Source of the DNA: Candidatus Zipacnadia bacterium
Lineage (GTDB): Bacteria; Armatimonadota; Zipacnadia; Zipacnadales; UBA5352
Assembly (NCBI GenBank): GCA_029821735.1
Contig: JALGSU010000017.1
Coordinates: 107,406-171,405, forward strand
DNA: 64,000 nucleotides
Direction of reading: 5' to 3'
Shown: one piece after another, positions 3,354-23,885 of the stretch
Position numbering within the stretch: the first letter of the stretch is position 1
How the letters are laid out: every line of letters starts with the position of its first letter
Made by a program: the position numbers and the translations under genes
Notes under the pieces: model-generated
What the model saw: the letters and a program-made list of their open reading frames with translations, nothing else
Databases searched by the model: none
What the model was told of the DNA's origin: nothing

Positions 3354-4331
3354 GTGCGCATCCATTCTCTAACACCCGTTCTCCTCGTAATCATTGTTCT
3401 GCTCGCGGGATCCATTGCGTCCGCAGACCTGCTCTACGATCACTTCGGCGTTACCCTTTCTCTGGGGTCCCAAGTGACCGAGCCGGTAAACGGCAACTAC
3501 TATCCGTTCGCCAACGGTACCTTCGTTCCCTCGGATACCGGCCGAATGGACTATGTGACTGACGACTGGTATGGGTCGTGGAGCGACACCGACTTCAACG
3601 ATGTCACCAGCGGCAACGGTGGCACCGTACCGTCCGGTGGCGAGCCCTACGACGTCGAAGCCCTCTTCTTCGACAACACCAACCAAGACCTCTATATCGT
3701 CGTGGTCACTTCTTTCGACCCACCTGCAGGACACGACGAGCCGCGACTCGAGCAGTTCGGCATCACCCCGATGATCGCCACCGGTGACCTCGCGCTCGAC
3801 TTTGGCCTGAACAGCGAATACACCGATGGCTTCAGCTACGACTATGGGGTCAACATCAACAACGAGAACCGCCCCGCTCTCTCCGGGCAGAACGCGACTT
3901 CCGGCGGCACGACTGTCGGCAACGCGCTCTACCGGACGGGCAACTCCGACTGGTATGTCGGCAGCGACTACAACGATGTTGACGCGGGCGGCGAATTGAC
4001 CAACTTCGACCCGGGCTGGAGCAGCTTCGGCGGCACCTCGCTCGGCAGCACCACAGTCAGCTACTCTCAGTATGACTTCGGTGGTGGCCTCCAGGAGGGC
4101 CGCTACGCGACCTACGTCATTGAGGTCACGATCCCGCGCTCGCTCCTCCCCGATGTCGAGGACGGCGACCTGATCGGCATCAGTTGGGTTGAGGGCTGCC
4201 GAAACGACGGTGGCGACGCCATCGTCCGCCTCAACGGTGATGTTGACGTGCCCGAGCCCTGCACCATGGTCCTCACCGGCCTCGGCGTCCTGGGCATGGG
4301 TTGGTGGAGGCGCCGGCGCTCCGCCGCCTGA
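3354..4331 (+). CDS. Secreted PEP-CTERM domain protein (exosortase substrate), GTG start
   Basis: N-terminal signal peptide (RIHSLTPVLLVIIVLLAGSIASA). The C-terminus is VPEPCTMVLTGLGVLGMGWWRRRRSAA, which is PEP plus a TM helix plus an Arg cluster. GGAGGG RBS. Confidence 0.7.
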   Translation: MRIHSLTPVLLVIIVLLAGSIASADLLYDHFGVTLSLGSQVTEPVNGNYYPFANGTFVPSDTGRMDYVTDDWYGSWSDTDFNDVTSGNGGTVPSGGEPYDVEALFFDNTNQDLYIVVVTSFDPPAGHDEPRLEQFGITPMIATGDLALDFGLNSEYTDGFSYDYGVNINNENRPALSGQNATSGGTTVGNALYRTGNSDWYVGSDYNDVDAGGELTNFDPGWSSFGGTSLGSTTVSYSQYDFGGGLQEGRYATYVIEVTIPRSLLPDVEDGDLIGISWVEGCRNDGGDAIVRLNGDVDVPEPCTMVLTGLGVLGMGWWRRRRSAA

Positions 4332-4355
4332 CGCCCCGCCTGAATCCAGACCATA

Positions 4356-4390
4356 CAAAGCGGCGCCCACATCGGGCGCCGCTTTTTTTG
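4356..4390 (+). terminator. Rho-independent terminator
   Basis: AAAGCGGCGCCC-acatc-GGGCGCCGCTTT followed by TTTTTTT, immediately after the PEP-CTERM gene stop. Confidence 0.7.
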
Positions 4391-4486
4391 TGGGGCAGTT
4401 CTCTGGCCCCGCCCGTCGTTGCCTTTGCTGTCGCTTCTGCTGTCTCTTTCGTTTCTGTCCTTTCTGCCATTCCGGGAGACTCCACC

Positions 4487-5344
4487 GTGCCGCCGCCTGA
4501 CCGCAAACGCGAACTCGCTCAGTTCTTCACGCCGCCGCAGGTAGCCACGCTGGCGTGGGACCTGCTCACCTGCTTCGGCGCGACACCCGACAACGCGCTC
4601 ATCGCCGACCCCGCTTGCGGCGCGGGCGTGTGGTTGGCCGAAGCCCGACGCCGTGGCGCGCCTCGCGAGCTGCATGGCTGCGATCTCGACGAGCGCCAGA
4701 CCGCCGCGTGGCTGCGGTCTGGCCTGAGCGCCGACGAGGCCTGTGCCCTCGGCGTCAGCGACGGCCTGCTCCTCGACGCCGCTCCGCCCGGCTTCGATGT
4801 CGTCACCGGCAACCCGCCCTTCGGCATTACTCTCGATGGCTGCGACCCCGACCACCTCGCACGCGTCGCCGCCCGCCACCACCTGTACCTCGGCGCCGCG
4901 GGTTCGCGCACTCCGCCCCTCAACCCGACGCCCGGCGACCTCGACCGCCTGCGCCGCTTCCCACTCGAGCTGCTCTTCCTCGAGCGCTTCGTGGCGCTGT
5001 GCCGCCCCGGCGGCTGGATCGCCATCATCCTCCCCGAGGGCATCGCCGCCAACGCGCGCTGGCGCTACGTCCGCGAGTGGCTGCTGACCGGTCGCGCGAT
5101 GCACGCCGTCATCGCCCTGCCACGTGGCACCTTCGGCGCGCACGGCACTCAGGCCAGCACCTGCCTGATGATCCTGCGCAACGCCCCCGCCGCCGCCAAT
5201 CACCAGGCGATCCTGACCGGTCTCGACTCATGCACGCCAGCCGCCTGCGACGAACTCGTCTCCCGCGTCACCGCCGATGCCTTCCCGCCCGCGAGCGCCG
5301 CCGATCTCCCCGCCGGTCTCCTCCCGCCACCCCTGATGCGCTGA
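4487..5344 (+). CDS. N6-adenine-specific DNA methyltransferase (amino-MTase, gamma-like, N6_Mtase/Eco57I-type), apparently orphan
   Basis: FFTP motif, ADPACGAGVWL (motif I) and DVVTGNPPFG (motif IV). I chose the GTG at 4487 as start because the upstream ATG (4301) overlaps the previous gene and its terminator. Confidence 0.6.
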   Translation: MPPPDRKRELAQFFTPPQVATLAWDLLTCFGATPDNALIADPACGAGVWLAEARRRGAPRELHGCDLDERQTAAWLRSGLSADEACALGVSDGLLLDAAPPGFDVVTGNPPFGITLDGCDPDHLARVAARHHLYLGAAGSRTPPLNPTPGDLDRLRRFPLELLFLERFVALCRPGGWIAIILPEGIAANARWRYVREWLLTGRAMHAVIALPRGTFGAHGTQASTCLMILRNAPAAANHQAILTGLDSCTPAACDELVSRVTADAFPPASAADLPAGLLPPPLMR

Positions 5345-6736: not shown

Positions 6737-6890
6737 CCGTCCGCCTTTGCCATTTTTGCCGTTCTCTGCGTCTCCGTGACTCTGCGGTTTGCCTTGGCCG
6801 TCCGCCTTCGCCTCGTCGTTCAGGTGGGGCCGGATTATGTCCGGATGCGATGCATCCGACATCCGGCCCGGTCGTTCTCACCCCAGAACC
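6737..6890. repeat. Structured intergenic repeat, copy A (GCCGTT-rich motifs plus a roughly 43-bp near-perfect palindrome GGCCGGATTATGTCCGGATGCGATGCATCCGACATCCGGCC)
   Basis: Nearly identical to 7655-7745, and shares gccgttctctgcgtctccg with 15470-15490. Confidence 0.5.
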
Positions 6891-7621
6891 GTCCACGGAT
6901 ATTCCGGTGCGATATGCGTCGCCGGCACGTCCGGGAATATCTCCTTCAGGTAATCCACCATCGCCATCATCGCCGGGATCTCGCCCATCCCGTGCGCGAC
7001 GAAGATCACTGGCACTCCCATCCCCAGCGCCCACAGCCCGTCGCGCGTCCACGAGTTCCCGTCGTCGGTCGCGAGGATCACGTCTGCTCCGAGGTCGTAC
7101 ATCTCTGGCAGTCGCGTGATCGCCCCGGTCCCCACTGCCATTCGGTGCACCACCTTGTCGGGGTCACCCACCACCAGCGCCGACTCCTGCCCGAGTTCCC
7201 GGATGCGCTCCACCACATGTGCGGCCAGCGCGCGCACGCTCATCCCGCCGGTCAGGCAGATGCGGTAGAAGCTCTCGGTCTCACGCGGTTCGCTCTCCAG
7301 CCTCAGCCATTTCGCCCACGAGTCCGGGATGCCCCAGACGGTCATACCCAGCTCATCGAGCAGCGCGCGCCGTTCGGCGAACGTCTTCTCGGTTGTCGGA
7401 TGTTCCTGATGCTGGTCGTAGAACATCCCCTCATGGCTGATGATGAGGTCAGCTCCGAACTCCGCTGCGGCTCGGATGACTTTGTCGGTCCCGATCCAGC
7501 ATGTGGCGATTCCGCTGACGTGGTTGTCGGGGTCCCCGTGCATGAACTGGTCGCAACTGTTGTCCCAGTCCACCCATGTCCCGACCGACTTGAAATGCTC
7601 ATAAACATCCCGCGCCGTCAT
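6878..7621 (-). CDS. Nif3/YqfO-family dinuclear metal-centre protein
   Basis: WVDWDNSCDQFMHGD and ADLIISHEGMFY motifs. I chose the ATG at 7621 because GGAGGA sits 6 nt upstream of it; the ORF track extends to 7654. Confidence 0.6.
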   Translation of the reverse strand: MTARDVYEHFKSVGTWVDWDNSCDQFMHGDPDNHVSGIATCWIGTDKVIRAAAEFGADLIISHEGMFYDQHQEHPTTEKTFAERRALLDELGMTVWGIPDSWAKWLRLESEPRETESFYRICLTGGMSVRALAAHVVERIRELGQESALVVGDPDKVVHRMAVGTGAITRLPEMYDLGADVILATDDGNSWTRDGLWALGMGVPVIFVAHGMGEIPAMMAMVDYLKEIFPDVPATHIAPEYPWTVLG

Positions 7622-7639
7622 GCTCATTCCTCCTGCCCA

Positions 7640-7960
7640 TCCTCCCGCACCCATCTGTCGCCTTTGTCTCGTCGTTCAGGGGGGGCCGGATTATGTTCGG
7701 ATGCGATGCATCCGACATTCGGCCCGGTCGTTGCCATGGCTGTTCGCCTTCGCCTTGGCCGTTTGGAGGGGCGGGGCTACGTCCCCGCCCGGCCTTTGCC
7801 GTGGCCGTCCGCCTTCGCCTTGGCCGTTTGGAGGGGCCGTGGCTTCAGCCCGGCCCGCCGTTCGCCTTCGCCCTCGCCGTACGGAGGGCCGATTCGTCAA
7901 AATCGGCCGGTCGTTGTCGTGGCGTTCAGCGTGTCACCGGCGCAGGCTCGTCCGTCCCGT
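7640..7960. repeat. Structured intergenic repeat cluster, copy B: the palindromic element (7676-7740) followed by three tandem ~60-bp units (7744-7800, 7807-7862, 7863-7915), each with a cgccttcgccttggccgtttggagggg core and a variable GC hairpin
   Basis: Direct reading. The hairpins are GGGGCGGGG/CCCCGCCC, GGGCCG/CGGCCC and GGCCGATT/AATCGGCC. ORFs 7620..8060 and 7693..7971 over this region are rejected. Confidence 0.55.
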
Positions 7961-7967
7961 CCTCACC

Positions 7968-10406
7968 CTAGACAATTCTCGCTTTGATGGGGTTCTCGAT
8001 ATTGGAGACTGCCTTCGACGCCGCATCTCGCACGTCGCCTTCCGGGTCGTCAGATCCTAGCCTCCGAAGGTCTTCCACGGCATCAGCCGCTCTTGTACCA
8101 CTTTCACCCAAGGCGAACGCAGCCCTGCTTCTGATCTTCCCGTTGATGTGTCGAAGTGCTTCGCGTAGCGGCTCCACGGCCGCCTCCCCAATCATCGCCA
8201 ACGCGATGGCAAATCCTGTCCATTTGGGGTCGTCCACGTTGCACAGCGCCTCAAGCAAAGGCGTGACGGCTTTCGGGCTATCGGTACAGCCCAGTGCTGT
8301 CGCAGCGTTGTAACGCAGGTCGGGGTCCTCAGAGCGAAGGAGGGGGACAAGAGGCTCCAGCACGACTTCCCCCAAGTTGCCCAAAACGTACGCCGCACGG
8401 AGGTTGAAGCCTCCGGCGTCTCTGTCCAAGGAGCCGTTCTCCAAGGCCTCCATGAGCCGATCCACGATCGCTTGGTCACTCTCACCCAGACGCGCCAGCG
8501 CGTGAGCAACCCAGGCGCGAACGTGAGGATCGTCGTCATTCAGTTTGCCGCGCAAGGGCTCCACCGCCCGCACATCGCCCAACTCACCCAGCGCCTCCGC
8601 CGCCCGCCATCGCACGCCCTCACTCTCGTCCCTATCCTCCAGCCTCTGGATGAGCGGGTCCACAGCCCGCGCGTCGCCCAACTGCCCCAGCGCCACCGCC
8701 GCGTGTACACGCACGTGCTCATTCTCGTCTTTGTCCATCAGCCTGCCGATAAGCGGCTCCACCGCCCGCGCGTCGCCCAAATCGCCCAGCGTCGCCACCA
8801 CGTTCGCGCGCACGTCCGCGCTCTCGTACTTCAGCCTTGCGATGAGCGGCCCCACTGCCCGCGTGTCGCCCAAATCGCTCAGCGCTATCGCCGCGTTCGC
8901 GCGCACTGCTGCCTCTTCATCCACCAGTACCTCGATCAGTGGCTCCAGTGCCCGCCTGTTACCCAAGGAACCTAGCGCCCGAGCCCCCTGCGCCCGCTTC
9001 TCGTAGTCCTCCGACTTGAGCCATGCCATCGCGTTGTCAAACGCATCGCCCGGCTCCCCGTCCGGTGCGGCGGCCACTGATGTGTGCGACAGATACTTCT
9101 CGGGGTCATCCTCATCGAGGGGCGGCGCTGTCTTGAGCAAGTCGATCAGACGGGTATCCCCGGCGGCCTCCATGTAATGTCTGGCGCGCTCTTCGCCGAT
9201 CTCACCCTTTGCTCGCCCCCGCCGCTCCAGCATGGCGGTCTGCTCTGCCTCCTCGCCGGGCTTCCGGGACGCTTCTTGGTCCTCGAACATCAGCCTCGGC
9301 AGCATTGCGTAGAGCTCGAAGGACTTCGGGAACGCCATCTGTATACCCAGCACCTTCGCCAGCTTGTTGGGGTCTAGCTCGGGCGCCACCTCAGCGAGGA
9401 AGCCATGCGTCATGCAGAATCGCTTGATGGCCCGCGGGTTCCGCCCGAATACCTTATCTATCAGCAAGTCGCGAAGAGTGTCGTTCACCATACGGTTCTT
9501 GCGCATCAACTTAGAGCAGTGGCGGAAGAAGGCCCTAGTCTTCTTGTCATTCAGTCGCGGCAGATAGAACGGAAGCTGCACGATCTTGTCAAGATACCGG
9601 TCCTTGATCTCGCGTGCTTCGTCGCCCTCCCGGCTGTACAACTCGCCGATCGCCTCCCTGACCATGTCCGGGTCCGCCGCGAGCACAAACACGCAGTCCT
9701 TCTGGTTCAGGTAGAGCTTGATGGTTTCCAGCACTTCGGGGATGACCTTACGCGGCGCCCGGTCGAGGTCGTCTATCAGGACGAGCACGCGCCCATTCTC
9801 TCCAAGCGCGGTCCTCAGGTCTTGCTTGAAATAGGTGCGGTACTGCTGTGCCAGACTGGCATCCGAGGAGAACAGTTTGTCGGCTGCCTTCCCGAGCCCC
9901 GCCGGCAACACGCCACCGGTCAGGACTCGGCCGACCAATGAGAGGAGCGCCAAGACGACTTGGCCCACAACTCCTCTCACGCCGGGGTTGCGGCGCCAGA
10001 ACGCCCGAAGCTTCAGCCACGAGTTGGTGGCATTATCCCTCCAAGCTTGCCCCTTCAGCAAGTCCCACCGCCAAGGCGGTGTGCACCAGAGACCCGCCCA
10101 CAGACTCGATGCCAGCAGCCGCTTCGCGTCCTCGGGCTTATCGCACTCCCACGGGTTGACGCGCACCACGCGCCATTTGCAGGTGCGCTCATCAGCGTAC
10201 TCATCCGAGAGCGCCGCATCCTCCAGCATGTTCAGGAAGCTGGTCTTGCCCGAGCCCCAGCTACCGAACACGCCCACCGTGAACGGCGTCTCCGCGCGCT
10301 CCATCGTGCGCAGCAGCCCGAAGATGTACCGCCCCAACTTCAGACGATCCTCCGCCAGCCCCTCGATTGCCTCGTCGCCCAGCCGCGCCCCGTTCTCGTC
10401 TGCCAT
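7968..10406 (-). CDS. KAP-family P-loop NTPase with a membrane insertion, fused to a C-terminal array of HEAT (PBS-lyase / E-Z type) repeats
   Basis: Walker A VGVFGSWGSGKTSFLNML, a hydrophobic insert (GVVGQVVLALLSLVGRVLTGGVLPAGL), and the KAP signature Walker B VLVLIDDLDR. The C-terminal half has at least 9 repeats of VRxxAAxALGxLGDxRAVEPLIxxL. Confidence 0.75.
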   Translation of the reverse strand: MADENGARLGDEAIEGLAEDRLKLGRYIFGLLRTMERAETPFTVGVFGSWGSGKTSFLNMLEDAALSDEYADERTCKWRVVRVNPWECDKPEDAKRLLASSLWAGLWCTPPWRWDLLKGQAWRDNATNSWLKLRAFWRRNPGVRGVVGQVVLALLSLVGRVLTGGVLPAGLGKAADKLFSSDASLAQQYRTYFKQDLRTALGENGRVLVLIDDLDRAPRKVIPEVLETIKLYLNQKDCVFVLAADPDMVREAIGELYSREGDEAREIKDRYLDKIVQLPFYLPRLNDKKTRAFFRHCSKLMRKNRMVNDTLRDLLIDKVFGRNPRAIKRFCMTHGFLAEVAPELDPNKLAKVLGIQMAFPKSFELYAMLPRLMFEDQEASRKPGEEAEQTAMLERRGRAKGEIGEERARHYMEAAGDTRLIDLLKTAPPLDEDDPEKYLSHTSVAAAPDGEPGDAFDNAMAWLKSEDYEKRAQGARALGSLGNRRALEPLIEVLVDEEAAVRANAAIALSDLGDTRAVGPLIARLKYESADVRANVVATLGDLGDARAVEPLIGRLMDKDENEHVRVHAAVALGQLGDARAVDPLIQRLEDRDESEGVRWRAAEALGELGDVRAVEPLRGKLNDDDPHVRAWVAHALARLGESDQAIVDRLMEALENGSLDRDAGGFNLRAAYVLGNLGEVVLEPLVPLLRSEDPDLRYNAATALGCTDSPKAVTPLLEALCNVDDPKWTGFAIALAMIGEAAVEPLREALRHINGKIRSRAAFALGESGTRAADAVEDLRRLGSDDPEGDVRDAASKAVSNIENPIKARIV

Positions 10407-12935: not shown

Positions 12936-12946
12936 GAGTGTTTGTC

Positions 12947-15391
12947 ATGAAGCGTTTCATCGTCGCGATGTTGCTCGTCGTTCTCGTCGTCCCCTGCAGC
13001 GCGCAGTTCGATATCAAGATCCCCGGACCTGGCGACTTGGAGATCGATATCAAGATCCCTGGTCTGAGCAAGATACTCCGCGCGGAGCCCGCTCTGGGAA
13101 CCAGCATTGAGGACGCCCTGACCGGCGTTGCCTTCCTCGATGACTATGACCCGGCCGTGCTCATCCCCATGGTCGAGGCCCCGCGCGTCAGCGACGCTGG
13201 TTTTGCGCTCGCCCCCGGCGCCTGGTATGCCTCCATGGAGAGCTACTGCCTCCACGCCGGCGTGCATGGCCCCAGTAGCGGCGAGGGCTATCTCTGGGCT
13301 CCGCTCAAGGGCCCGTTGGCTGACGAAATCACTGACATCATGAGCAACGCGGCCCTGCACCCCGAGGTCCCGCAGCGCGATATCCAGGTCCTCGTATGGG
13401 GCCTGCTGGCGCGAACTAAGATCAGCGACATGTCCGACCCGTTGCGGCAGGCGGCCCGAGCCCTGCTCACCTCCAAGCAGATTCGCGGCCTCAACGGTGG
13501 CGCGCTGTCGCGGATCCCCGAGAAGCTCTTCGACCGCGCGTTTGGTGAGTTGCCTCCTGCGGTCCGCGACATCATGGAGGCCGAGGCGCGCATCCGCAAC
13601 ATGATCTCCGGCGAGATCAGCGACTTCAACGCCATTGAGGGCATCGCCGTCGTGCCTGGCGATCCGCCCTTCGACCCCAACGCGGCCTACCTCCCCCGAG
13701 GTCGCTGGTCATACGTCCCCGGTGGTTTCTTCACCCGCTACCTGCCCGATGGCTATGACCGCACTGACACGACCGTCGTTGTGCCCGCGCAGGTCACCTA
13801 CCAGCAGGATGCGCTCGGGCGCATCACAGCCATGGAGGACCGGGCCGGCAACCGTGTCGAGGCCAGCTACAATGACACGATCGCCCCGGCCACCGTCGCG
13901 GGCGACGCTGCCGTTCTCGGCTACGCCTTCGAGTCCCTCCGCCTCATGGCCCCCGACTCTGCCGCTCCCGGTGGCGTTCGCGAGATGACGCTCACCGACG
14001 TCGGCTGGACCCTTGTCGGCACCGCCTCCGGCGCAGGCCAGGCGCAGGCGGGCGCCGCGCCCTACGCTGATCTCGCCGAGCGATACGCCTGGGCCGTTCA
14101 GCACGCTGCTGAATTGGGCCCACTCGTCGCCAGCGTGAAGCAGGCTGGCGAGGCCCCCGCCTCTGATGCTGACACCGCCGCGGCGGTCGCGCTCATGGCC
14201 AACCTCGCCAACTTCCACCAGGCCCTCCAGCGCGCCACGGCATCGACCACCGCCGAGCCCTGGATGCACGCCCCCGTGGAAGTGGCCCGCCAGGCCTGGA
14301 TGGCCGCCCTCAGCTCCGTCAGCGACGGCCGCGGCGCTCCCGAGGTCCAGCAGGCCAGCATCGAGGCCCGCCAGCCGGTCCGGTTGGCCTCCACGTTGCT
14401 CTCACCGATCATCTTCTCTGGCGGCGAGGTGCGCTATTCCGGCGGCGGGCTGAAGCCCTTCCGCCCGGGCGGTGGCGCGGCGCAGCCCACCGGCGGGCGT
14501 CAGCGGCTCGGCCAGTCCCACCGCCCGCGCGAGCTCAAGCCCTTCAAGCCTGACGAAGACGACGATGACGATGACGATGACGATGACAGCGGCAACGGTA
14601 AGGGCGTCCTCAACAAGGCCAAGAAAGCCATCGGCTGGATAAGCAAGGGCAAGCAGGTCGTCGATGCAGTCACCAATCCCGTCGGCACCATTGCCGGGCA
14701 GGTCGGCTTTGGCATCCAGGGCCAGATGCAGTCGGGTTACTTCGACTGGCTCTTCGGCACCTCTGCCAAGATATCGAAGGCACTCGGCGGCGACCCGCCC
14801 CGCCCCGATTTTGACATCATCGAGCCTCTCACGCAGGTCGCTATTGGCTCGCCGCAGGACTTTGGGCAGATACCGGCCGCTCGCGCGGCTGCCCTCAATG
14901 ACTTGCGCTTTGCTCTGGACAATCTCGTCGCCACTTCGCGTGTCGCGAAGATCTCCCTCGACCGTCTTGGCGGGGCCATGGAAGCCGGGAATGCCGAGTG
15001 GGAGCAGAATCAGGCGATGGCTTTCATGCAGCAGAAGCGCACCACTGGCGTGTGGTTCACCGAGACCGCCCGCTGCCTCGATGCCTTGCTCGATGAACTC
15101 GCGGCGGAGGGCATCAACGATATCCAGATCACGTCCGACGCGTATGCGGCCTACCAGGCGCGCCTGCAGGCAACCGGCTTCACTGCTGACGAGTTGCAGG
15201 CGGCTCAGATGGCTGGTCTGACTGGCGCCGAGATCGCGGCCGAGTTGCAGTATCGGCTGTCGCTGAATCCTGCGTCTGAGGCTGGCAGTCTGATCGAGGG
15301 AGGTCGCGAAGCCGCCGAGGTCATGCGTGCCTTGGGTGCGCGCTGGGAGTCTTTGCCCGACAGCCACCTCGAGGACATCCTGGGCGAGTAA
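12947..15391 (+). CDS. Secreted hypothetical protein with an internal poly-Asp tract (D x10 at nt 14557-14592)
   Basis: Signal peptide MKRFIVAMLLVVLVVPCSAQ. GAGGAG RBS 8 nt upstream of the 12947 ATG. I recognised no family. Confidence 0.5.
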   Translation: MKRFIVAMLLVVLVVPCSAQFDIKIPGPGDLEIDIKIPGLSKILRAEPALGTSIEDALTGVAFLDDYDPAVLIPMVEAPRVSDAGFALAPGAWYASMESYCLHAGVHGPSSGEGYLWAPLKGPLADEITDIMSNAALHPEVPQRDIQVLVWGLLARTKISDMSDPLRQAARALLTSKQIRGLNGGALSRIPEKLFDRAFGELPPAVRDIMEAEARIRNMISGEISDFNAIEGIAVVPGDPPFDPNAAYLPRGRWSYVPGGFFTRYLPDGYDRTDTTVVVPAQVTYQQDALGRITAMEDRAGNRVEASYNDTIAPATVAGDAAVLGYAFESLRLMAPDSAAPGGVREMTLTDVGWTLVGTASGAGQAQAGAAPYADLAERYAWAVQHAAELGPLVASVKQAGEAPASDADTAAAVALMANLANFHQALQRATASTTAEPWMHAPVEVARQAWMAALSSVSDGRGAPEVQQASIEARQPVRLASTLLSPIIFSGGEVRYSGGGLKPFRPGGGAAQPTGGRQRLGQSHRPRELKPFKPDEDDDDDDDDDDSGNGKGVLNKAKKAIGWISKGKQVVDAVTNPVGTIAGQVGFGIQGQMQSGYFDWLFGTSAKISKALGGDPPRPDFDIIEPLTQVAIGSPQDFGQIPAARAAALNDLRFALDNLVATSRVAKISLDRLGGAMEAGNAEWEQNQAMAFMQQKRTTGVWFTETARCLDALLDELAAEGINDIQITSDAYAAYQARLQATGFTADELQAAQMAGLTGAEIAAELQYRLSLNPASEAGSLIEGGREAAEVMRALGARWESLPDSHLEDILGE

Positions 15392-15544: not shown

Positions 15545-17551
15545 ATGACCGGTGCGCGCCACACGCTGACCCCGAGGTCGATCATCATCGGCGCCATTGG
15601 CGCGGCGGTGGTCTGCTTCGTCATTGGTTGGGGCGAGATGGTCGTTGGCGCGATCCAGATAGCCATCTGCCAGTTCAATCCCGCCGCGATAGGCCTTCTT
15701 CTCATCGTGGTCTTGGCCAACCTCGCCGTCGGCTGGCTCGCCCCGCGAATGGCCCTGCGCCCTCACGAGATCATCATCATCTACCTGATGATTCTTGCCG
15801 CCGCGCTGACCATGAGTCGCGGTCTCCTCGAGCGCTGGATACCCGCGCTGATCGCCGTCAACTACTACGCCAATCCCTCCAACCACTGGCAGGAACTCTT
15901 CTTCGAGCACATTCCCCAGTGGGCCGTTCCCTTCGATGTCGAAGGCGGCACCGAGCAGCCCCTGGCGCGCTACTTCTACGAGGGTCTGCGCCCGGGCACG
16001 CCCCTGCCCATCCGCGAGTGGGCTCCCGCACTCATCGCCTGGTTGCCGCCCGTGCTCTCCATGTTTGTCGCTTACTTCTGCATGGCCTCACTCATCCGCC
16101 GCCAGTGGGTGGACAACGAGAAGCTCTCCTTTCCGCTGACCACCTTGCCCGTTGAGATGGCTGTGCACAGTCACTGGTCGAAGTCGCTCTTCGGCAACTG
16201 GCTGATGTGGATCGGCTTCGCCATCCCCTTCCTCATCTTTACGCTCAACGGTCTGCACACGCTCTTCCCGCAGATCCCCGAAATCCCCGTGGTCTATCGC
16301 CTCAACCGGATGGTCTTCAACACCATGGGCCGCCCGTGGCGAGACCTTGGCAACACCACCGCCTACTGCTCGATGGCCGCTGTCGGCTTCGCGTATTTCC
16401 TCCCCGCGCAGGTGCTCTTTTCGCTCTGGTCCTTCTACGTGATCTCCCGCGTGCAGAACATCACCTTCTCGGCCTTCGGCGCTGCGCCCCAGGCCATGCC
16501 GCTCTTCCCGACCAAGCTGTGGAACGGTTACCAGGTCATGGGCGCGTATGTCGTCCTCGCGGGCTACATGGTCAGGTCCGCCTGGCCGCATCTGCAGCGC
16601 ACCTGGGCGGCCGCCACTGCCGGCGCGGAGCTCCCTCCCGAGGACGCCGTCCCCAGTCGTTACGGTGGCCAGTCCGAGCGCGCCCGCCCGGCTCTGCCCC
16701 CGAGGGTCGCGCTCATTGGCCTCGGCGTATCGGCGGTCGTCGCGGCGTGGTGGTTCACGTTGCTTGGCATGGCCCCGTGGATGGCCGTGCTCGAGGTCGT
16801 CGCCTTCCTCGGCGTGGTCTGCCTGGTGATGGCCCGCAGCGTCGGCGAGGCCGGTCTGCTCATGACCGAGACCAGCTTCCGCCCTGTCGACATGGTCCGC
16901 CTGGTCAGTCCCATGAAGGCGCTCGGCGCTCCGACGCTCACTGCTCTCTCGCTGGCTGATGCGGTATTCACCCGCGACTTGCGCGGCAACTTGCTCTCGA
17001 CGCTCCTCGATGGCCTGAAGATGAGTGACCTCACGGACCTCGACCGCCGCCACTTATTCGCGGCGATCGCGATCGCGCTCGTGGTCGCGTTGGGGGTTGG
17101 CGGGTGGTTGCACTTGGCCTTGCCGTATGCCAATGGCGGGGTGGGGATGTATAGCTACGTGTATCGGGGCAACCCGTTGCTCGGCTTCCGCTATTTCGCG
17201 CCGGTGCTCGAGGGCGGCGATGAGTATGATGCGCGCTTGCCGATCTTCTTCGGATCGGGAGTAGCGGTGGCCTTGGGGTTGAGTTGGATGCGGACCCAGC
17301 ACGTCTGGTGGCCGTTGTCTCCGCTGGGTTTGGCGCTATCGGGTTCGTGGTCGATGATAGTCTTCTGGTTCCCGATGTTGATTGCGTGGTTGATCAAGGG
17401 CGGGGTAGTCCGCTACGGTGGCATGAAGTTGTATTCGAATCTCCGCCCGTTCTTCTTGGGGATGATCTTGGGCGAATTCTCTCAGGCGGTGATTTGGGCG
17501 ACGATCTGCGGCGTCTACCGCACCCCCGCCCCCTTCTTCCCCTGGCCATAG
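15545..17551 (+). CDS. Large polytopic integral membrane protein (about 14 predicted TM helices), function unknown
   Basis: Long hydrophobic segments throughout. The RBS is weak, so the start is uncertain. Confidence 0.5.
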   Translation: MTGARHTLTPRSIIIGAIGAAVVCFVIGWGEMVVGAIQIAICQFNPAAIGLLLIVVLANLAVGWLAPRMALRPHEIIIIYLMILAAALTMSRGLLERWIPALIAVNYYANPSNHWQELFFEHIPQWAVPFDVEGGTEQPLARYFYEGLRPGTPLPIREWAPALIAWLPPVLSMFVAYFCMASLIRRQWVDNEKLSFPLTTLPVEMAVHSHWSKSLFGNWLMWIGFAIPFLIFTLNGLHTLFPQIPEIPVVYRLNRMVFNTMGRPWRDLGNTTAYCSMAAVGFAYFLPAQVLFSLWSFYVISRVQNITFSAFGAAPQAMPLFPTKLWNGYQVMGAYVVLAGYMVRSAWPHLQRTWAAATAGAELPPEDAVPSRYGGQSERARPALPPRVALIGLGVSAVVAAWWFTLLGMAPWMAVLEVVAFLGVVCLVMARSVGEAGLLMTETSFRPVDMVRLVSPMKALGAPTLTALSLADAVFTRDLRGNLLSTLLDGLKMSDLTDLDRRHLFAAIAIALVVALGVGGWLHLALPYANGGVGMYSYVYRGNPLLGFRYFAPVLEGGDEYDARLPIFFGSGVAVALGLSWMRTQHVWWPLSPLGLALSGSWSMIVFWFPMLIAWLIKGGVVRYGGMKLYSNLRPFFLGMILGEFSQAVIWATICGVYRTPAPFFPWP

Positions 17552-17750: not shown

Positions 17751-19469
17751 TCACCGGTCCGCCTCTCGCCTCTGCGCCTCTTGCTCTATAGCCGCCTTCG
17801 CTCGCGGGTCCTTGTCCTGGTAGCGCAGGAGTCTCATGATCTCCCCACGCGGCTTGCCCTCCGCTCCATCCAGCCCCGCCACCAGCGCATCGATGGCGTC
17901 GCCCTTCATTTGACCCAGGGCGCTGGCGGCCTCGCGCTTGACGTTCCTCTCCTCATGCCCGAGCAGTTTCACGAGCGGGCCCGCCGCGGCAGGCCCTATC
18001 GCCACAAGGGCCGCCCCGACGGCTGAATTGCGGCCGGATTCTTTGTCGCTCATCTCGTCAATCAGCGGGCCGATGGCCCGCGCATCGCCCAGCTCGCCAA
18101 GCGCCTTGATCGCCGCGATGACGGCCCGCGCATCTCCGAGTTGACCCAGCGAAGTGGCCGCATTCGCGACGGTGACCCGGTCCTCTCGTTGCAGCGCAGA
18201 GATCAGCTTCTTCACGGCCGACCCGTCGCCTATGGCGCCAAGCGCCTTCACTGCGGCCTGCTGCACCGACTTCTCGGGATCGTCAAGCCCTGCCATCAGC
18301 GCAGGCACTGCGGGCCCATACTTGAGCTTGCCGAGCGAGTCCGCCGCATACGCACGAACCTGCCTGTCGGCAGCATCGTCCTCCAGCACGCCCAGCAGCG
18401 CCGCGCCGGCGCGCTGATCGCCGATCTTGCCCAGCGCCCGGGCCGCAAGCCACCCCGTATCAGTCTTCAGTGCCTCGATCAGCAGGTCGATGGCCTCCGG
18501 ATCTCCCGTCGAACTCAAAGCGTATACGCCCCATTCGCCCCGCGCCTGTCCCCGCTGCCATGCCCCGATCAGGGCCGACGTAGCGGCGGGGCCGAACGCT
18601 TCGATGGCCGCGAAGGCCGCATTGCCCACGACGCGGTGCGGGTGATCCAGCGCACGAATGATCGTCTCCAGTGCGCGGGCGTCGCCCAATCTCCCCAGCG
18701 CTTGAACTGCAGCCCCGGCCGCCTTCGCCTCTTTCTCGACGCGAGCGGTCTCAGCCTTGCGGCGCTCGGCCTCGGCCATGTCCCTGCCGAGAGGCGTCGC
18801 GACGGCGGGAGCCATGGCCGCCACTGCGTGCCGCCGATGCGCCGCCATCAGCGGGGCGAAGGCTGCAACGATCGCCGTCGGGTCCTCCTTGCCGATGGCG
18901 CTCAGCGCATTCGCGGCTGCCCCCACCGTGACCGCATCATCTTCCTCGAGTGCCGCGATCAGGGCGGGGACGGCCGGACGCCCCATCCCCGCCAGTGCGA
19001 AGCCCGCGCCTACCACGGCGCCCTCCTCCCTGCTGCGAAACACCTCGAGCACGCGCTCCAATACCGCCTCGTCCGAATCGCCCAGCCTGCCCAGGCTGAT
19101 GCCGGCGGAGCGCGCCCGATTGGGGTCGTCATCACTGAGCTTTGCGATGAGGAGGTCCACCTCGGTCTTGGTGGGCTGCCAAAGAGCTTCCGGTGCCGGG
19201 CTGCCCTCGTCCTCCAGGCGTGCGCTCAGCACGTCTCGCACCCCCGTCGTCACCCACACCAGGAAGATCCCCACCGCCACGAGCAGCACGAACTTCCGCA
19301 TAATGGGGTATGACTCCGGCTCCGGTTGCGGGGCCGAAGGCCCGACCACACGGTAAGACTGACCGCATTCGCACCGGTAAACGCTCCCGGCGGCCCCCGC
19401 TTCGACCTCGCGCTCTTGCCCGCATCGTGGACACTTAACTGTAATCATAATCCCGCTTCCTCCGCTCAT
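17751..19469 (-). CDS. Zinc-ribbon / single-TM / HEAT-repeat protein, paralog 1 (the most diverged)
   Basis: N-terminal VKCPRCGQ...YRCECGQ zinc ribbon, then TM helix FVLLVAVGIFLVWV, then more than 10 PBS-lyase HEAT repeats. The C-terminus has the LLRYQDKDPRAKAAIEQEA motif shared with the paralogs. An alternative start lies at 19448. Confidence 0.7.
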   Translation of the reverse strand: MSGGSGIMITVKCPRCGQEREVEAGAAGSVYRCECGQSYRVVGPSAPQPEPESYPIMRKFVLLVAVGIFLVWVTTGVRDVLSARLEDEGSPAPEALWQPTKTEVDLLIAKLSDDDPNRARSAGISLGRLGDSDEAVLERVLEVFRSREEGAVVGAGFALAGMGRPAVPALIAALEEDDAVTVGAAANALSAIGKEDPTAIVAAFAPLMAAHRRHAVAAMAPAVATPLGRDMAEAERRKAETARVEKEAKAAGAAVQALGRLGDARALETIIRALDHPHRVVGNAAFAAIEAFGPAATSALIGAWQRGQARGEWGVYALSSTGDPEAIDLLIEALKTDTGWLAARALGKIGDQRAGAALLGVLEDDAADRQVRAYAADSLGKLKYGPAVPALMAGLDDPEKSVQQAAVKALGAIGDGSAVKKLISALQREDRVTVANAATSLGQLGDARAVIAAIKALGELGDARAIGPLIDEMSDKESGRNSAVGAALVAIGPAAAGPLVKLLGHEERNVKREAASALGQMKGDAIDALVAGLDGAEGKPRGEIMRLLRYQDKDPRAKAAIEQEAQRREADR

Positions 19470-19488
19470 CCGGCCCTTACGCCTCTCC

Positions 19489-21111
19489 TCACTCCGCCTC
19501 TTGCTCTATCGCCGCCTTCGCTCGCGGGTCCTCATACCTGGCGCGCAGCAGCCTCAGAATCTCCGCGCGTTGTTCGCTCCCCGCCTTAGCCAGCCCGGCC
19601 ACAAGCGCATCGATGGCTTCCTCATCCATCCTCTGCAGCGCGCTCTCCGTGCGGGACCTGACCACTGTACTCTCACTGGCCAGACCCGCCACCAGCGCTT
19701 CGAGGCCATCGCCCCTCATCCTGCCCAGAGCATCCAACGCACTGGACCTGACGCTCCCACGGTCATGGTCAAGCAGCTCCACCAGTGCCTTCGCTGCGCG
19801 TTTGCCCCCGATCTCTGCCAGCGCCTTGATGGCTACTTTGACCACCTCGCTGGACTCATCATCGAGGGCGCCGATCAGTGGCTCGACCGCTTCCGCGCAT
19901 CCCAGCTTACCCAGCGCCTGAGCTCCCATCTTCCGCTGGTATTCCTTCTCGTGATTGAGGGTCGTAGCGAGGGCCGGTAAGGCCCGCGCGTCCCCAAATG
20001 CGCCGAGTGGTTCGATGGCGTAGTGATCGCCCCTCTCGACGGCCTTGATCAGCACCGGCACAGCGCGCGTGTCGCCCTTGCTCACCATGATCTGTGCAGC
20101 GGCGGAGACCATCGAGCCGTTGTCAGACATCAATCGGCGCAGCACCTCTTCCTCAGACACCAGTGTGTACGGGTCGGCGGTGACCTCCAGAACCATCGCT
20201 CGGACGTCCGGCCTCATCCTCCATATGTCCGCCCGCAGCGCCGGAAGAGCGTCCGGCCCAATCTTATTGAGCGCTTCAACGATCGTGCGGTCCATCTCCC
20301 GACCCATGTGCCCCAACGTCGCAACAAGCTCGTCAGTGGCCTCGCCCGCCCCTATCTCGCCCAGAGCCTTCGCCATGGCTTCCGCCGCTTTACTGTGCAT
20401 CTTGAGCCGATCCGGGTCCAGCCGCCGTCGTTTGAACCACCGCCAGGCCCCGAGGTCCTCCGCCAGTACGTGCTTCTTGAACTCCTGAATCAGAAGCTCT
20501 GTGGCCTGTGCGTCGCCGATCTCTCCCAGTGCCCGAGCGGCTTCGGTCGCGACCGCGATGTCTCTGCTAACCAGCGCCTTCAGCAGCGCCGGCACCGCCG
20601 ACTCGCCTATAGCCGCCAGAGCGCTCCTCGCGCTGCTGCGAACTCTGTCGTCGTCGGAACGCAGCGCTCTGATGAGCGGCCCAATTGCCCGCTCGCCCTT
20701 CTCCCCGAGCAGCCCGACGGCTGACTCGCGCACGCGCTCGTCGTCCCTGGAAAGCCGTTTGATGAGTTCGCGTACGGACCCCTCACGGGGTTGTCCGTAC
20801 AAGAGGGCTTCGACGTCCGTCACTCCGAGGTGCCAGTAGATTCCATTCACCAGTTGCAGGGCTGCGACGAGGGCTATGAAGCCGAGGGAGACGCCGACAA
20901 CCGCCCGCCACTTCGGCGACAGGCGATTCAGGGCGTTTCGCGGCCCGGGAAGTGGGCGCTCCGGCTTGGCACTTGGGGCACGGAACTCTCCGCCACACTG
21001 GCAGCGGTGCATCCGCCCCAGGTTCTCTGGCGCGATCTCCACCCGCGCGCTGCAGTGAGGGCACTTCACGATCGTGCTCTTCTGCTCGCCGTCCCCGTCC
21101 ATCCTTCTCAT
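19489..21111 (-). CDS. Zinc-ribbon / single-TM / HEAT-repeat protein, paralog 2
   Basis: MRRMDGDGEQKSTIVKCPHCSARVEIAPENLGRMHRCQCGGEFRAP, then TM helix, then HEAT repeats. GAAGGAG RBS 7 nt upstream. Confidence 0.7.
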   Translation of the reverse strand: MRRMDGDGEQKSTIVKCPHCSARVEIAPENLGRMHRCQCGGEFRAPSAKPERPLPGPRNALNRLSPKWRAVVGVSLGFIALVAALQLVNGIYWHLGVTDVEALLYGQPREGSVRELIKRLSRDDERVRESAVGLLGEKGERAIGPLIRALRSDDDRVRSSARSALAAIGESAVPALLKALVSRDIAVATEAARALGEIGDAQATELLIQEFKKHVLAEDLGAWRWFKRRRLDPDRLKMHSKAAEAMAKALGEIGAGEATDELVATLGHMGREMDRTIVEALNKIGPDALPALRADIWRMRPDVRAMVLEVTADPYTLVSEEEVLRRLMSDNGSMVSAAAQIMVSKGDTRAVPVLIKAVERGDHYAIEPLGAFGDARALPALATTLNHEKEYQRKMGAQALGKLGCAEAVEPLIGALDDESSEVVKVAIKALAEIGGKRAAKALVELLDHDRGSVRSSALDALGRMRGDGLEALVAGLASESTVVRSRTESALQRMDEEAIDALVAGLAKAGSEQRAEILRLLRARYEDPRAKAAIEQEAE

Positions 21112-22043
21112 CCCCGCTCCTTCGGGTCCTGACGCTGCTCGCCCGCTCGCTCAATCGCCGGCGTGGCGCTGGCCCCCATCCTCTTCAGCGCCTCGGCGAT
21201 GGTCTGGTCGAGGCTCGGGTCTATCGTCCCCAACGCCATCGAGAGCGCGTCAGCGGCCTCGCTGGCCCTCAACTCCCCCAGAGCCTTGGCCATCGCGTTC
21301 GCCGCGTTGACGTGGTGCTTGCGCTGATCGGCATCCAGCCCGGCTGTGCTGGCGGACGGCCTGATGGGTGAGGCCGCCATCGCGATATGTTCCTCGAATT
21401 CCCTGAGCAAGGGCCCTGTGGCGCGCGGGTCCCCGATGTCCCCCAATGCCCACGCTACCCAGGTCGCGACCCTGGTATCTTCCTCCGCCAGCGCCTCGAT
21501 GAGCGATGGCAATGCTGGCTCGCCGATCCTGACCAGAGCTTGCTGAGCGTTGCTGCAAGTCAAGAAGTCCTTGGAATGCAACGCGAGCATCAGCGGCTCG
21601 ATTGCGCTCTCGCCCCTTCGGACGAGTTCCCTGGTAGCCAGCCCGCCGATGTTCCGGTCCCGGTCAGAAAGCTGAGTGATGAGTTCGTCCATGCTCAGCT
21701 CGGAGCGCTGCACCTCGGTCGGGGCCCCGGGGTCTGTCATTTCGGTGGGCCACAAGCCAAACCAGCAAGCCGCGTACAGGCCTGCTGTCAGAATCCCGAA
21801 GCCGAGCGCTGAGGCTATGACCACGTTGAGAACGCTCCGCCACATCGGTGACAGTCGGACCGCTGCACTTCCTGGCTCGCGAAGTGCTCGGGGCGGCTTG
21901 CCCCCGGGCGCCCGGAACTGTCCACCGCATTCGCAGCGGTGGACACGCCCGAGGCCCTGCGGCGCGATCTCCACCCGCGCACCGCAGTGCGGACACTTGA
22001 CGATGGTTTTCTTCTGCTCGCCGTCCCCGTCCATGCTTCTCAA
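21108..22043 (-). CDS. Zinc-ribbon / single-TM / short HEAT-repeat protein, paralog 3 (truncated relative to its neighbours, TTG start)
   Basis: Same N-terminus, (MRS)MDGDGEQKKTIVKCPHCGARVEIAPQGLGRVHRCECGGQF. It is only 311 aa, and its stop overlaps the next gene's start (ATGA). Confidence 0.55.
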   Translation of the reverse strand: MRSMDGDGEQKKTIVKCPHCGARVEIAPQGLGRVHRCECGGQFRAPGGKPPRALREPGSAAVRLSPMWRSVLNVVIASALGFGILTAGLYAACWFGLWPTEMTDPGAPTEVQRSELSMDELITQLSDRDRNIGGLATRELVRRGESAIEPLMLALHSKDFLTCSNAQQALVRIGEPALPSLIEALAEEDTRVATWVAWALGDIGDPRATGPLLREFEEHIAMAASPIRPSASTAGLDADQRKHHVNAANAMAKALGELRASEAADALSMALGTIDPSLDQTIAEALKRMGASATPAIERAGEQRQDPKERG

Positions 22044-22060
22044 GCCCGCTCCCTTCGCCG

Positions 22061-23851: not shown

Positions 23852-23885
23852 CCTTCTCAGCCCCGCTCCTCTTGGCCCGATCCGC

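What the first reader, a model, noticed from the sequence alone, without database searches (positions are those of the whole stretch)
7968..10406. KAP-family NTPase with an internal TM insertion fused to at least 9 HEAT repeats
KAP NTPases (Walker A GSGKT, the hallmark DDLDR Walker B, and TM helices inserted into the P-loop fold) are usually fused to varied C-terminal modules. A long E-Z/PBS-lyase HEAT array as the partner, matching neighbouring paralogs, looks like a distinct and possibly undescribed architecture.
Basis: partly seen in the sequence, partly recalled or inferred. Interest (0 to 1): 0.7.

Follow-up and report, generated by a model that had tools for sequence, protein, structure and literature searches.

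The report
Soluble KAP ATPase fused to HEAT repeats
This gene encodes a KAP-family ATPase joined to about eleven HEAT repeats, but the claimed membrane-spanning insertion is not supported, and the fusion is a rare member of a known group of switch ATPases that carry varied repeat arms.

Summary
The ORF at 7968-10406 (-) is real: 812 aa, with a KAP_NTPase domain (Pfam E 3.5e-36) that has an intact Walker A (GSWGSGKT) and Walker B (LVLIDDLDR), then a helical linker and 10-11 PBS-lyase-type HEAT repeats.

The "internal TM insertion" is not supported. The Walker A-Walker B insert has one hydrophobic stretch (aa 143-169). It lies in window-specific indels, is absent from all six orthologues that cover it, and is modelled with pLDDT below 50. 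True TM-bearing KAPs found in the same search have two stronger segments and a longer insert.

The "neighbouring paralogs" are a separate zinc-ribbon + TM + HEAT family sharing only generic repeat similarity (28-38% identity).

The KAP domain sits among soluble KAP NTPases whose C-terminal module tracks the KAP clade: TPR, pentapeptide, FGE-sulfatase, SWIB, L7/L12-C and HEAT, the last in two separate clades. Its closest solved relative is RdrA, the ring-forming RADAR ATPase.

The orthogroup is tiny (WS1 and Armatimonadota MAGs). It has no conserved neighbours and sits among housekeeping genes.

Most likely it is a cytoplasmic NTP-driven oligomeric switch with a HEAT binding arm. Its biological role is unresolved. 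Modest interest: a new variant of a known kind.

The parts
7968..10406 (-). Complete ORF, 812 aa plus stop: KAP NTPase + helical linker + HEAT array
   Evidence: ORF list and translation. GC3 0.78 is typical of genes in this window. The N-terminus aligns from residue 1 with orthologue P0001.
9411..10295 (-). KAP_NTPase P-loop domain (aa 38-332)
   Evidence: Pfam PF07693 E 3.5e-36, profile positions 17-284 of 293. AF2 KAP-only model has pLDDT 85.3 and pTM 0.84. Best solved-structure matches are RdrA, then ORC/Cdc6 and CED-4.
10242..10265 (-). Walker A, GSWGSGKT (aa 48-55)
   Evidence: Motif search. W50, G51, G53 and K54 are invariant in 71 aligned KAP relatives.
9759..9785 (-). Walker B, LVLIDDLDR (aa 208-216)
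   Evidence: Motif search. D212, D213, L214, D215 and R216 are invariant in 71 relatives.
9852..10124 (-). Helical insert between the Walker A half and Walker B (aa 95-185): the position where classical KAPs carry TM helices. It is the least conserved part of the protein.
   Evidence: 33% identity to orthologues against 51-67% in the core, with 22 window-specific extra residues. pLDDT is 36-59.
9900..9980 (-). Single hydrophobic stretch VRGVVGQVVLALLSLVGRVLTGGVLPA (aa 143-169), specific to this lineage
   Evidence: KD19 maximum 1.94. Absent from P0001-P0004, P0123 and L004. pLDDT below 50.
9420..9440 (-). Conserved NPRxIKR motif (aa 323-329); candidate sensor or arginine-finger region (inference)
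   Evidence: N323, P324, R325, K328 and R329 are at least 90% conserved in 71 relatives.
9057..9410 (-). All-helical C-terminal KAP region and charged linker (aa 333-450)
   Evidence: AF2 helices H346-H443 with pLDDT mostly 80-96. 33-35% identity to orthologues.
7974..9053 (-). HEAT (PBS-lyase/E-Z type) solenoid, a capping helix plus 10 helix pairs (aa 452-811)
   Evidence: HEAT_2 E 4.6e-56, HEAT_PBS E 5.2e-38, HEAT_EZ E 1.7e-21. AF2 helix pairs. Foldseek top hits are alphaRep proteins at 35-47% identity, TMt 0.8-0.9.

Best explanation
The gene encodes a cytoplasmic, TM-less member of the KAP family of P-loop NTPases, with a 10-11-repeat HEAT solenoid fused to its C-terminus.

Shown:
- The domain identities.
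- An intact catalytic set: Walker A Lys54, Walker B Asp212/Asp213, and the family motifs QLPF and NPRxIKR.
- Membership of a clade of soluble KAP NTPases whose C-terminal repeat or binding module varies with the KAP clade.
- Closest solved relative RdrA, the heptameric ring ATPase of RADAR.

Inferred:
- The KAP domain works as an NTP-dependent oligomerisation switch, ring-forming as in RdrA, ORC/Cdc6 and STAND proteins.
- The HEAT solenoid is the arm that binds a protein partner or ligand and couples binding to the nucleotide cycle.
- The protein has no recognisable effector domain and no conserved partner gene. It sits among housekeeping genes in every locus of its clade examined.
- I therefore take it to be a stand-alone chromosomal scaffold or regulator of a protein complex, not part of a mobile defence island. 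An immune-sensor role is not excluded.
For: - Domains and motifs.
- Soluble clade: none of the 4 closest database orthologues, and very few of the 120 closest homologues, have a hydrophobic segment between Walker A and Walker B. In the exhaustive search, 105 of 137 have none.
- Modular C-terminal partners that track KAP clades (HEAT, TPR, pentapeptide, FGE-sulfatase, SWIB, L7/L12_C, CheY).
- The KAP-HEAT clade (window orthogroup + P0126 + P0135) is recovered in 97 of 100 NJ bootstraps. The second KAP-HEAT clade (P0102/P0108) stays separate in 100 of 100.
- Housekeeping contexts with no conserved neighbour: NIF3 and M28 peptidase in the window; NTP_transferase and purH for P0002; HisRS for P0001; dapB and asd at 44 and 13 nt spacing for P0126.
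- The rest of the window is ordinary chromosome, with no tRNA genes and no integrase or transposase domain among the ORFs scanned.
- Literature: QatA, a KAP NTPase, multimerises (bioRxiv 10.1101/2025.09.03.674047). In EF_KAP both the Walker B motif and the fused C-terminal region are needed for function (bioRxiv 10.1101/2025.10.07.681051).
Against: - No experiment or oligomer model supports ring formation for this protein.
- The inter-domain arrangement is uncertain: full-length pTM 0.59.
- The window protein, unlike its orthologues, does carry a hydrophobic 27-residue stretch that could mediate membrane association.
- All experimentally characterised prokaryotic KAP NTPases found here are anti-phage (PifA, QatA, RdrA, EF_KAP). 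A second KAP-HEAT clade member lies beside a Type I R-M system. A 'housekeeping' role therefore rests on context in only four loci.
Confidence: 0.6

Rival explanations
1. Single-gene anti-phage or conflict sensor that works like a STAND (Avs-type) protein. The HEAT solenoid recognises a phage protein. The KAP domain then oligomerises and hydrolyses NTP. The output is NTP depletion, or membrane perturbation by the hydrophobic insert.
For: - Sub-threshold hits to the defence KAPs QatA, PifA and PDC-S20, and to HEAT-containing defence proteins.
- The closest solved relative is RdrA of RADAR.
- KAP NTPases fused to variable C-terminal regions give phage defence in Enterococcus.
- KAP NTPase + CLec proteins are DGR-diversified putative antigen sensors (PMC10907252).
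- P0108, from the other KAP-HEAT clade, lies next to a Type I R-M system.
- Some neighbours of distant relatives carry ResIII/HSDR_N, TIR_2, Mrr_cat or BrxC domains.
Against: - No effector domain.
- No defence genes flank the gene in the window or in the P0001, P0002 and P0126 loci. All four contexts are housekeeping, and one is inside a dapB-asd cluster.
- No mobile-element marks: no tRNA genes and no integrase or transposase domain among the ORFs scanned, and GC content is typical of the window.
- The defence signal among neighbours of distant relatives is small and has no control: about 10 of 131.
- The nearest methyltransferase-like ORF (4301-5344) is separated from the gene by two unrelated genes.
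Confidence: 0.25
2. One reading: a canonical membrane-embedded KAP NTPase whose P-loop domain is anchored by TM helices inserted between Walker A and Walker B.
For: - The insert sits at the canonical position.
- One stretch (aa 143-169) exceeds the usual Kyte-Doolittle TM threshold, with a maximum of 1.94.
Against: - There is only one hydrophobic segment. A single pass would put the two halves of the NTPase fold on opposite sides of the membrane (inference). It is too short for a hairpin of two full TM helices and has Arg160 at its centre.
- It is absent from every orthologue and lies in window-specific indels.
- AF2 confidence there is below 50.
- True TM-KAPs in the same search (for example P0213, P0160, P0231, P0261) have two segments with KD 2-3 and a 183-223 aa gap.
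- At most it could be a monotopic or re-entrant anchor acquired recently.
Confidence: 0.1
3. The HEAT part is a CpcE/NblB-type bilin lyase or related cofactor-handling module, and the NTPase assists cofactor or protein maturation.
For: NCBIfam hits to CpcE (E 2.1e-30), NblB (E 2.5e-26) and CpcF.
Against: - All scores are far below the curated cutoffs: 106 against 330, 92.5 against 300, 48.5 against 220. They reflect the shared repeat type.
- The same hits appear for the unrelated neighbouring HEAT ORFs.
- None of the ORFs scanned in the window matched a phycobiliprotein family.
Confidence: 0.03

Closest known systems
KAP family P-loop NTPases (Pfam PF07693; named after Kidins220/ARMS and PifA; Aravind et al. 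2004 Genome Biol 5:R30, cited from my own knowledge because the paper is not in the held library)
   Same: - Strong profile match.
- GxxGxGKT Walker A and hhhDDLDR Walker B.
- NAW/NPW strand motif, QLPF and NPRxIKR motifs.
- A helical insert between Walker A and Walker B.
- A variable fused module.
   Different: - No convincing TM helices in the insert. PifA also lacks them according to PMC13001434.
- The fused partner is a PBS-type HEAT solenoid, which I did not find described in the literature.
RdrA, the ATPase of the RADAR anti-phage system (PDB 8fnt, 8fnu, 8hr8)
   Same: - A soluble KAP-like NTPase without TM helices.
- The only solved-structure hit of the KAP profile at E 1e-4 or better (E 1.4e-7).
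- A large C-terminal helical region follows the NTPase.
- It forms nucleotide-dependent rings, which is the mechanistic model adopted here.
   Different: - Only 12-16% identity.
- RdrA works with an adjacent RdrB deaminase. No deaminase is adjacent here or in orthologous loci.
- RdrA's C-terminal part is not a HEAT_PBS array.
Soluble KAP NTPases fused to TPR, pentapeptide, FGE-sulfatase/CLec, SWIB or L7/L12-C modules (database proteins P0005-P0120; KAP+CLec DGR targets in PMC10907252)
   Same: - Same KAP sub-type (23-30% identity, no TM).
- Same layout of an N-terminal NTPase followed by a C-terminal repeat or binding module.
- The module type is clade-specific.
   Different: - A different C-terminal module.
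- The window orthogroup is a long, isolated branch: only 10 representatives at E below 1e-30 among 19,386 relatives.
STAND NTPases with C-terminal repeat sensors (Avs, NLR, Apaf-1/CED-4, MalT)
   Same: - NTPase followed by a superstructure-forming repeat array.
- The likely logic is ligand binding coupled to oligomerisation.
   Different: - Not a member: no NACHT or NB-ARC profile hit, and AAA_22 scores only 23.3 bits, below its cutoff.
- No N-terminal effector domain.
QatA (QatABCD) and PifA (F plasmid)
   Same: KAP NTPase domain. PADLOC QatA E 2.6e-25 and PifA E 2.8e-20; NCBIfam QatA E 4.1e-31.
   Different: - The matches cover only the KAP domain.
- The NCBIfam QatA score is 108 against a cutoff of 600.
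- There are no qatBCD neighbours and no plasmid context.

Membership tests
KAP family P-loop NTPase (PF07693) | Profile match above Pfam's gathering score | tested here: met
   125.4 bits against 20, E 3.5e-36, aa 38-332 on profile positions 17-284 of 293.
KAP family P-loop NTPase (PF07693) | Walker A GxxGxGK[ST] and Walker B hhhhDD[LI]DR | tested here: met
   GSWGSGKT at aa 48 and LVLIDDLDR at aa 208. These columns are invariant in 71 relatives.
KAP family P-loop NTPase (PF07693) | Conserved post-Walker B motifs (K..Q..F..P and NPR..KR) | tested here: met
   K274, Q277, F280, P283, N323, P324, R325, K328 and R329 are at least 90% conserved and present in the window protein.
KAP family P-loop NTPase (PF07693) | Two or four TM helices inserted in the P-loop domain between Walker A and Walker B (classical description; not universal, since PifA lacks them) | tested here: not met
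   - One hydrophobic stretch only (aa 143-169, KD 1.94), specific to this protein.
- pLDDT below 50.
- Positive controls in the same search show two segments with KD 2-3.
- No dedicated TM predictor was available.
RADAR (RdrA/RdrB) | KAP-like ATPase encoded next to an RdrB adenosine deaminase | tested here: not met
   - The neighbours are NIF3 and an M28 peptidase.
- The orthologue loci have no deaminase.
- tblastn with the one deaminase found beside P0108 hits no other locus and not the window.
QatA of QatABCD | NCBIfam NF041923 equivalog score and a qatBCD operon | tested here: not met
   108.3 bits against a cutoff of 600. There are no QueC-like or TatD neighbours.
STAND NTPases (NACHT/NB-ARC) | NACHT, NB-ARC or other STAND profile match | tested here: not met
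   No such Pfam family at E up to 1. Only AAA_22, at 23.3 bits, below its cutoff of 27.
HEAT repeat (PBS-lyase / E-Z type) | Repeated HEAT_2, HEAT_PBS or HEAT_EZ profile matches and an alpha-solenoid of helix pairs | tested here: met
   HEAT_2 187.5 bits, HEAT_PBS 125.6 bits with 8 stretches. Ten helix pairs plus a capping helix in the AF2 model. AlphaRep structures are the top Foldseek hits.
CpcE/CpcF/NblB phycobilin lyase family | NCBIfam equivalog score above the cutoff | tested here: not met
   CpcE 106.1 against 330; NblB 92.5 against 300; CpcF 48.5 against 220.

The most novel reading that the evidence does not exclude
The KAP-HEAT clade is a previously unrecognised stand-alone sensor-switch. 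The HEAT solenoid recognises a specific (possibly viral) protein, and nucleotide-driven ring assembly is itself the output.

In the window lineage, the newly acquired hydrophobic hairpin in the P-loop insert would be a latent membrane-inserting effector, exposed on activation. That would recreate, from a soluble ancestor, the membrane coupling of classical KAP NTPases, and would give a PifA-like membrane-leak outcome from a single protein.
Probability: 0.1. Interest if true: 0.6.

Novelty: new variant of a known kind. Interest (0 to 1): 0.3.

Why it matters
KAP NTPases are a large family: 19,386 representative relatives at 50% clustering in this search. They remain poorly understood, and the few studied prokaryotic members all act in phage defence.

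This case supports the view that a large soluble branch of the family is built like STAND proteins: an NTPase switch plus an exchangeable repeat or binding arm. HEAT solenoids appear to have been recruited in at least two separate clades. RdrA offers a structural template for how these proteins might assemble.

The KAP-HEAT clade sits in housekeeping contexts. If that holds, it hints at a non-defence role for some KAP NTPases, which would be worth testing.

For genome annotation, the practical lesson is that 'KAP' does not imply 'membrane protein'. Public records label such proteins only as 'HEAT repeat domain-containing protein'.

Tried and rejected
- Genome-collection scan with the single protein found no relative. 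The scan with the orthologue alignment worked.
- phmmer of the KAP half against PDB sequences gave only chance-level P-loop hits. The family profile was needed to reach RdrA.
- The Aravind et al. 2004 KAP paper is not in the held library. Its content is cited from memory and marked as such.
- An exact look-up of the window protein's contig found no record. The cluster look-up shows only that the protein is a singleton on a 185-kb NCBI/JGI contig without a name.
- RADAR-like pairing. An adenine deaminase overlaps the KAP-HEAT gene P0108 by 23 nt. tblastn found it in no other fetched locus and not in the window, so I rejected it as a general feature.
- Neighbour survey of 131 ORFs flanking 34 distant KAP relatives. 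The mix contained GNAT (9), ResIII/DEAD (4), HSDR_N, TIR_2 and Mrr_cat (2 each), and BrxC (1). It uses crude ORF calling and has no control, so I treat it as inconclusive.
- Fold search with the full-length model is swamped by HEAT and alphaRep hits. A KAP-only model was needed.
- 'Paralogy' with the neighbouring HEAT ORFs is rejected. Identity is 28-38% in shifted registers, and the N-terminal architecture differs.
- The phycobilin-lyase reading is rejected on the curated cutoffs.
Full report
**1. What is in the sequence**

The minus-strand ORF 7968-10406 is the longest ORF at this position and encodes 812 aa. Its codon-position GC (GC3 0.78) matches other genes in this roughly 65% GC window.

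Pfam finds:
- KAP_NTPase (PF07693) on aa 38-332, 125.4 bits against a cutoff of 20, E 3.5e-36.
- Strong HEAT matches in the C-terminal half: HEAT_2 E 4.6e-56, HEAT_PBS E 5.2e-38 in 8 stretches, HEAT_EZ E 1.7e-21.

Walker A is GSWGSGKT at aa 48 and Walker B is LVLIDDLDR at aa 208. In an alignment with 70 relatives, these residues are invariant: W50, G51, G53, K54, W86, D212-R216 and E227. These are at least 90% conserved: K274, Q277, F280, P283, N323, P324, R325, K328 and R329. All are present in the window protein, so nothing suggests a dead enzyme.

AlphaFold2 gives a confident model (mean pLDDT 84). It has a five-stranded P-loop core, an all-helical region to about aa 443, and then a capping helix plus ten helix pairs from aa 452 to 811. 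'At least 9 HEAT repeats' is therefore correct; I count 10-11.

**2. The 'TM insertion'**

There is an insert of about 90 aa between the Walker A half and Walker B (aa 95-185). This is the position where classical KAP NTPases carry two or four TM helices (Aravind et al. 2004, from my own knowledge).

- A Kyte-Doolittle scan finds one stretch above 1.6: aa 143-169, maximum 1.94, with Arg160 in the middle. The Trp-rich first half of the insert is not hydrophobic.
- Alignment with the orthologues shows that this stretch coincides with 22 residues, in three indels, that only the window protein has. The six orthologues covering the region (P0001, P0002, P0003, P0004, P0123, L004) have a shorter, polar insert and no hydrophobic segment.
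- The insert is the least conserved part of the protein: 33% identity against 51-67% in the core.
- It is the only long low-confidence region in both AF2 models, with pLDDT below 50.
- Very few of the 120 nearest database homologues have a hydrophobic segment between the two motifs.
- In the exhaustive representative search, 105 of 137 proteins with both motifs have none. The 32 that do include clear positive controls (P0213, P0160, P0231, P0261, P0178) with two segments of KD about 2-3 and a Walker A-Walker B gap of 183-223 aa, against 160 aa here.

A single membrane pass inside a P-loop domain would separate the two halves of the fold (inference). I conclude that this lineage is a soluble KAP NTPase. 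The window protein's hydrophobic stretch is a recent local feature. At most it is a peripheral or re-entrant membrane anchor. No dedicated TM predictor was available.

**3. The 'neighbouring paralogs'**

Four tandem minus-strand ORFs at 17751-23926 are HEAT_2/HEAT_PBS proteins. Their N-termini carry a CPxC...CxCG zinc-ribbon-like motif followed by a hydrophobic segment. They have no KAP domain.

Their repeats match the KAP-HEAT array at only 28-38% identity, in many shifted registers. That is less than the array's identity to the longer artificial consensus alphaRep chains (35-47%). The similarity is that of the repeat type, not specific paralogy.

**4. Relatives and distribution**

A word-indexed search with aa 1-450 found four close relatives at 42-46% identity: P0001 (731 aa) and P0002 (699 aa), both KAP+HEAT, plus two fragments. 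Identity then drops to 30% or less.

The exhaustive search found 19,386 representative relatives at E up to 1e-3, but only 10 at E up to 1e-30. The window protein itself is a singleton cluster on a 185-kb NCBI/JGI contig and has no name.

Genome scans place the orthologues in MAGs of candidate division WS1 and Candidatus Zipacnadia, a class of Armatimonadota. One of these is a degenerate copy (L008).

The more distant relatives are soluble KAP NTPases fused to other modules:
- FGE-sulfatase
- TPR
- pentapeptide repeats
- SWIB
- ribosomal L7/L12 C-terminal domain
- CheY
- HEAT again (P0102, P0108, P0126, P0135)
- some that are KAP-only or tandem double KAPs

In NJ trees of the KAP domain, the C-terminal module tracks the KAP clade. 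The window orthogroup joins P0126 and P0135 in 97 of 100 bootstraps. P0102 and P0108 form a separate clade in 100 of 100 and never join the others. HEAT arrays therefore appear to have been joined to KAP domains at least twice. This rests on NJ only and should be confirmed.

**5. Structure**

A profile of the KAP alignment hits one solved protein convincingly: S. suis RdrA (8fnu), deposited as 'KAP NTPase domain-containing protein', at E 1.4e-7. The alignment runs through Walker A and an IDDLD Walker B. RdrA is a heptameric, two-layered ring ATPase (PMC9994260).

The HEAT half superposes on alphaRep proteins (TMt 0.8-0.9).

**6. Genomic context**

In the window the gene is flanked by a NIF3-family gene (6878-7654, minus strand, 314 nt downstream) and a divergently oriented M28 peptidase.

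The wider window is ordinary chromosome. It holds a sulfatase, a PEP-CTERM protein, a beta-helix protein, DUF6785, glycoside hydrolases, RelA/SpoT, indolepyruvate-type oxidoreductase subunits, RmlD and AdoHcy hydrolase. It has no tRNA genes, and none of the ORFs scanned matched an integrase or transposase domain.

Orthologue and clade-mate loci are equally mundane and share no neighbour:
- P0002: NTP_transferase and purH
- P0001: HisRS
- L008: GFO/IDH oxidoreductase and an ABC transporter
- P0126: wedged between dapB (44 nt) and asd (13 nt) on the same strand

The other KAP-HEAT clade differs. P0108 overlaps a downstream adenine deaminase by 23 nt and lies beside a Type I R-M system. The deaminase pairing does not recur in the 84 loci fetched up to that point or in the window.

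A crude survey of 131 ORFs flanking 34 distant KAP relatives shows a few restriction, TIR or BREX domains among mostly unrelated genes. I treat this as inconclusive.

**7. How it most likely works**

Shown:
- An intact KAP NTPase without conserved TM helices, fused to a HEAT solenoid.
- Membership of a modular, soluble KAP branch.
- Nearest solved relative a ring-forming ATPase.

Inferred:
- The KAP domain acts as a nucleotide-dependent oligomerisation switch.
- The HEAT solenoid is the binding arm for a protein partner or ligand.
- Together they behave like a STAND-type sensor-switch without being a STAND member.

Published work on other KAP NTPases fits this picture:
- QatA multimerises.
- EF_KAP needs both its Walker B motif and its fused C-terminal region.
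- KAP+CLec proteins are diversified like antigen sensors.
- A recent preprint states that KAP ATPases often contain repeats and that PifA lacks TM helices.

The biological role is open. The housekeeping contexts, the lack of an effector domain and the lack of mobile-element marks lean away from a defence island. All characterised prokaryotic KAPs are defensive, which leans the other way.

My estimates are:
- 0.6 for the mechanistic statement
- 0.25 for a dedicated defence role
- 0.1 for the membrane-embedded reading
- 0.03 for a lyase-type role

**8. Comparison and novelty**

This is a member of the KAP family. It passes the profile, the motifs and the post-Walker B signatures, and fails only the TM criterion, which is not universal.

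It is not RdrA, QatA or PifA: there is no partner gene and the scores are far below the cutoffs. It is not a STAND NTPase, as no profile matches. It is not a CpcE/NblB lyase, as the scores fall below the cutoffs.

I found no paper describing a KAP-HEAT fusion. The architecture is present, unnamed or labelled 'HEAT repeat domain-containing protein', in public protein sets.

I rate it a new variant of a known kind, with modest interest (0.3).

Noticed in passing
window 17751-23926 (-): Four tandem paralogous ORFs (572, 540, 311 and 621 aa). Each has an N-terminal CPxC...CxCG zinc-ribbon-like motif, then a hydrophobic segment, then HEAT_2/HEAT_PBS repeats. This is a locally expanded family of apparently membrane-anchored HEAT proteins, unrelated in architecture to the KAP-HEAT gene.
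   Followed up: partly
window 12938-15391 (+): An 817-aa ORF with gene-like codon statistics (GC3 0.82) but no hit in Pfam, NCBIfam or PADLOC. It lies about 2.5 kb from the KAP-HEAT gene on the opposite strand.
   Followed up: partly
L083 8001-11613 (also L084): The KAP-HEAT protein P0108, from the second KAP-HEAT clade, overlaps a downstream 579-aa adenine deaminase (Amidohydro_1 + Adenine_deam_C) by 23 nt. It sits next to a Type I R-M system and a DUF772 transposase fragment. A KAP ATPase paired with a deaminase recalls RADAR. The pairing was not found in any other fetched locus.
   Followed up: partly
L083/L084 1-7032: The contig carrying P0108 encodes archaeal markers: exosome Rrp41/42/4, proteasome alpha, TFIIE and SBDS. 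Yet the near-identical NCBI protein P0268 is labelled 'Desulfobacteria bacterium'. This is probably a mis-binned MAG contig.
   Followed up: no
L008 9533-10993: In a Candidatus Zipacnadia MAG, the homologous ORF (486 aa) keeps only the first ~70 positions of the KAP profile (the Walker A region) and one HEAT_2 match. It looks like an internally deleted or decaying copy.
   Followed up: partly
P0124, P0125, P0132 (database proteins, 947-1013 aa): Among the closest out-group relatives are proteins with two KAP NTPase domains in tandem. Pfam gives three KAP stretches plus a second set of P-loop hits at about aa 640-830.
   Followed up: no
window 4301-5344 (+): A 347-aa ORF with N6_Mtase and type II methyltransferase-like hits (Pfam E 1.4e-12, PADLOC MTase_II E 1.9e-22). 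No restriction partner is evident. Long ORFs overlap it on both strands in a 70% GC stretch, so the true gene model is uncertain.
   Followed up: no
loci L005-L043, ORFs flanking distant KAP relatives: GNAT acetyltransferases were the most frequent neighbour domain: 9 of 131 flanking ORFs. This may reflect orthologous Firmicutes loci rather than a functional link.
   Followed up: no
window 15545-17551 (+): A 668-aa protein with a full-length DUF6785 (E 1.2e-126) plus DUF6784: a large uncharacterised family member between the unknown 817-aa ORF and the HEAT paralog array.
   Followed up: no
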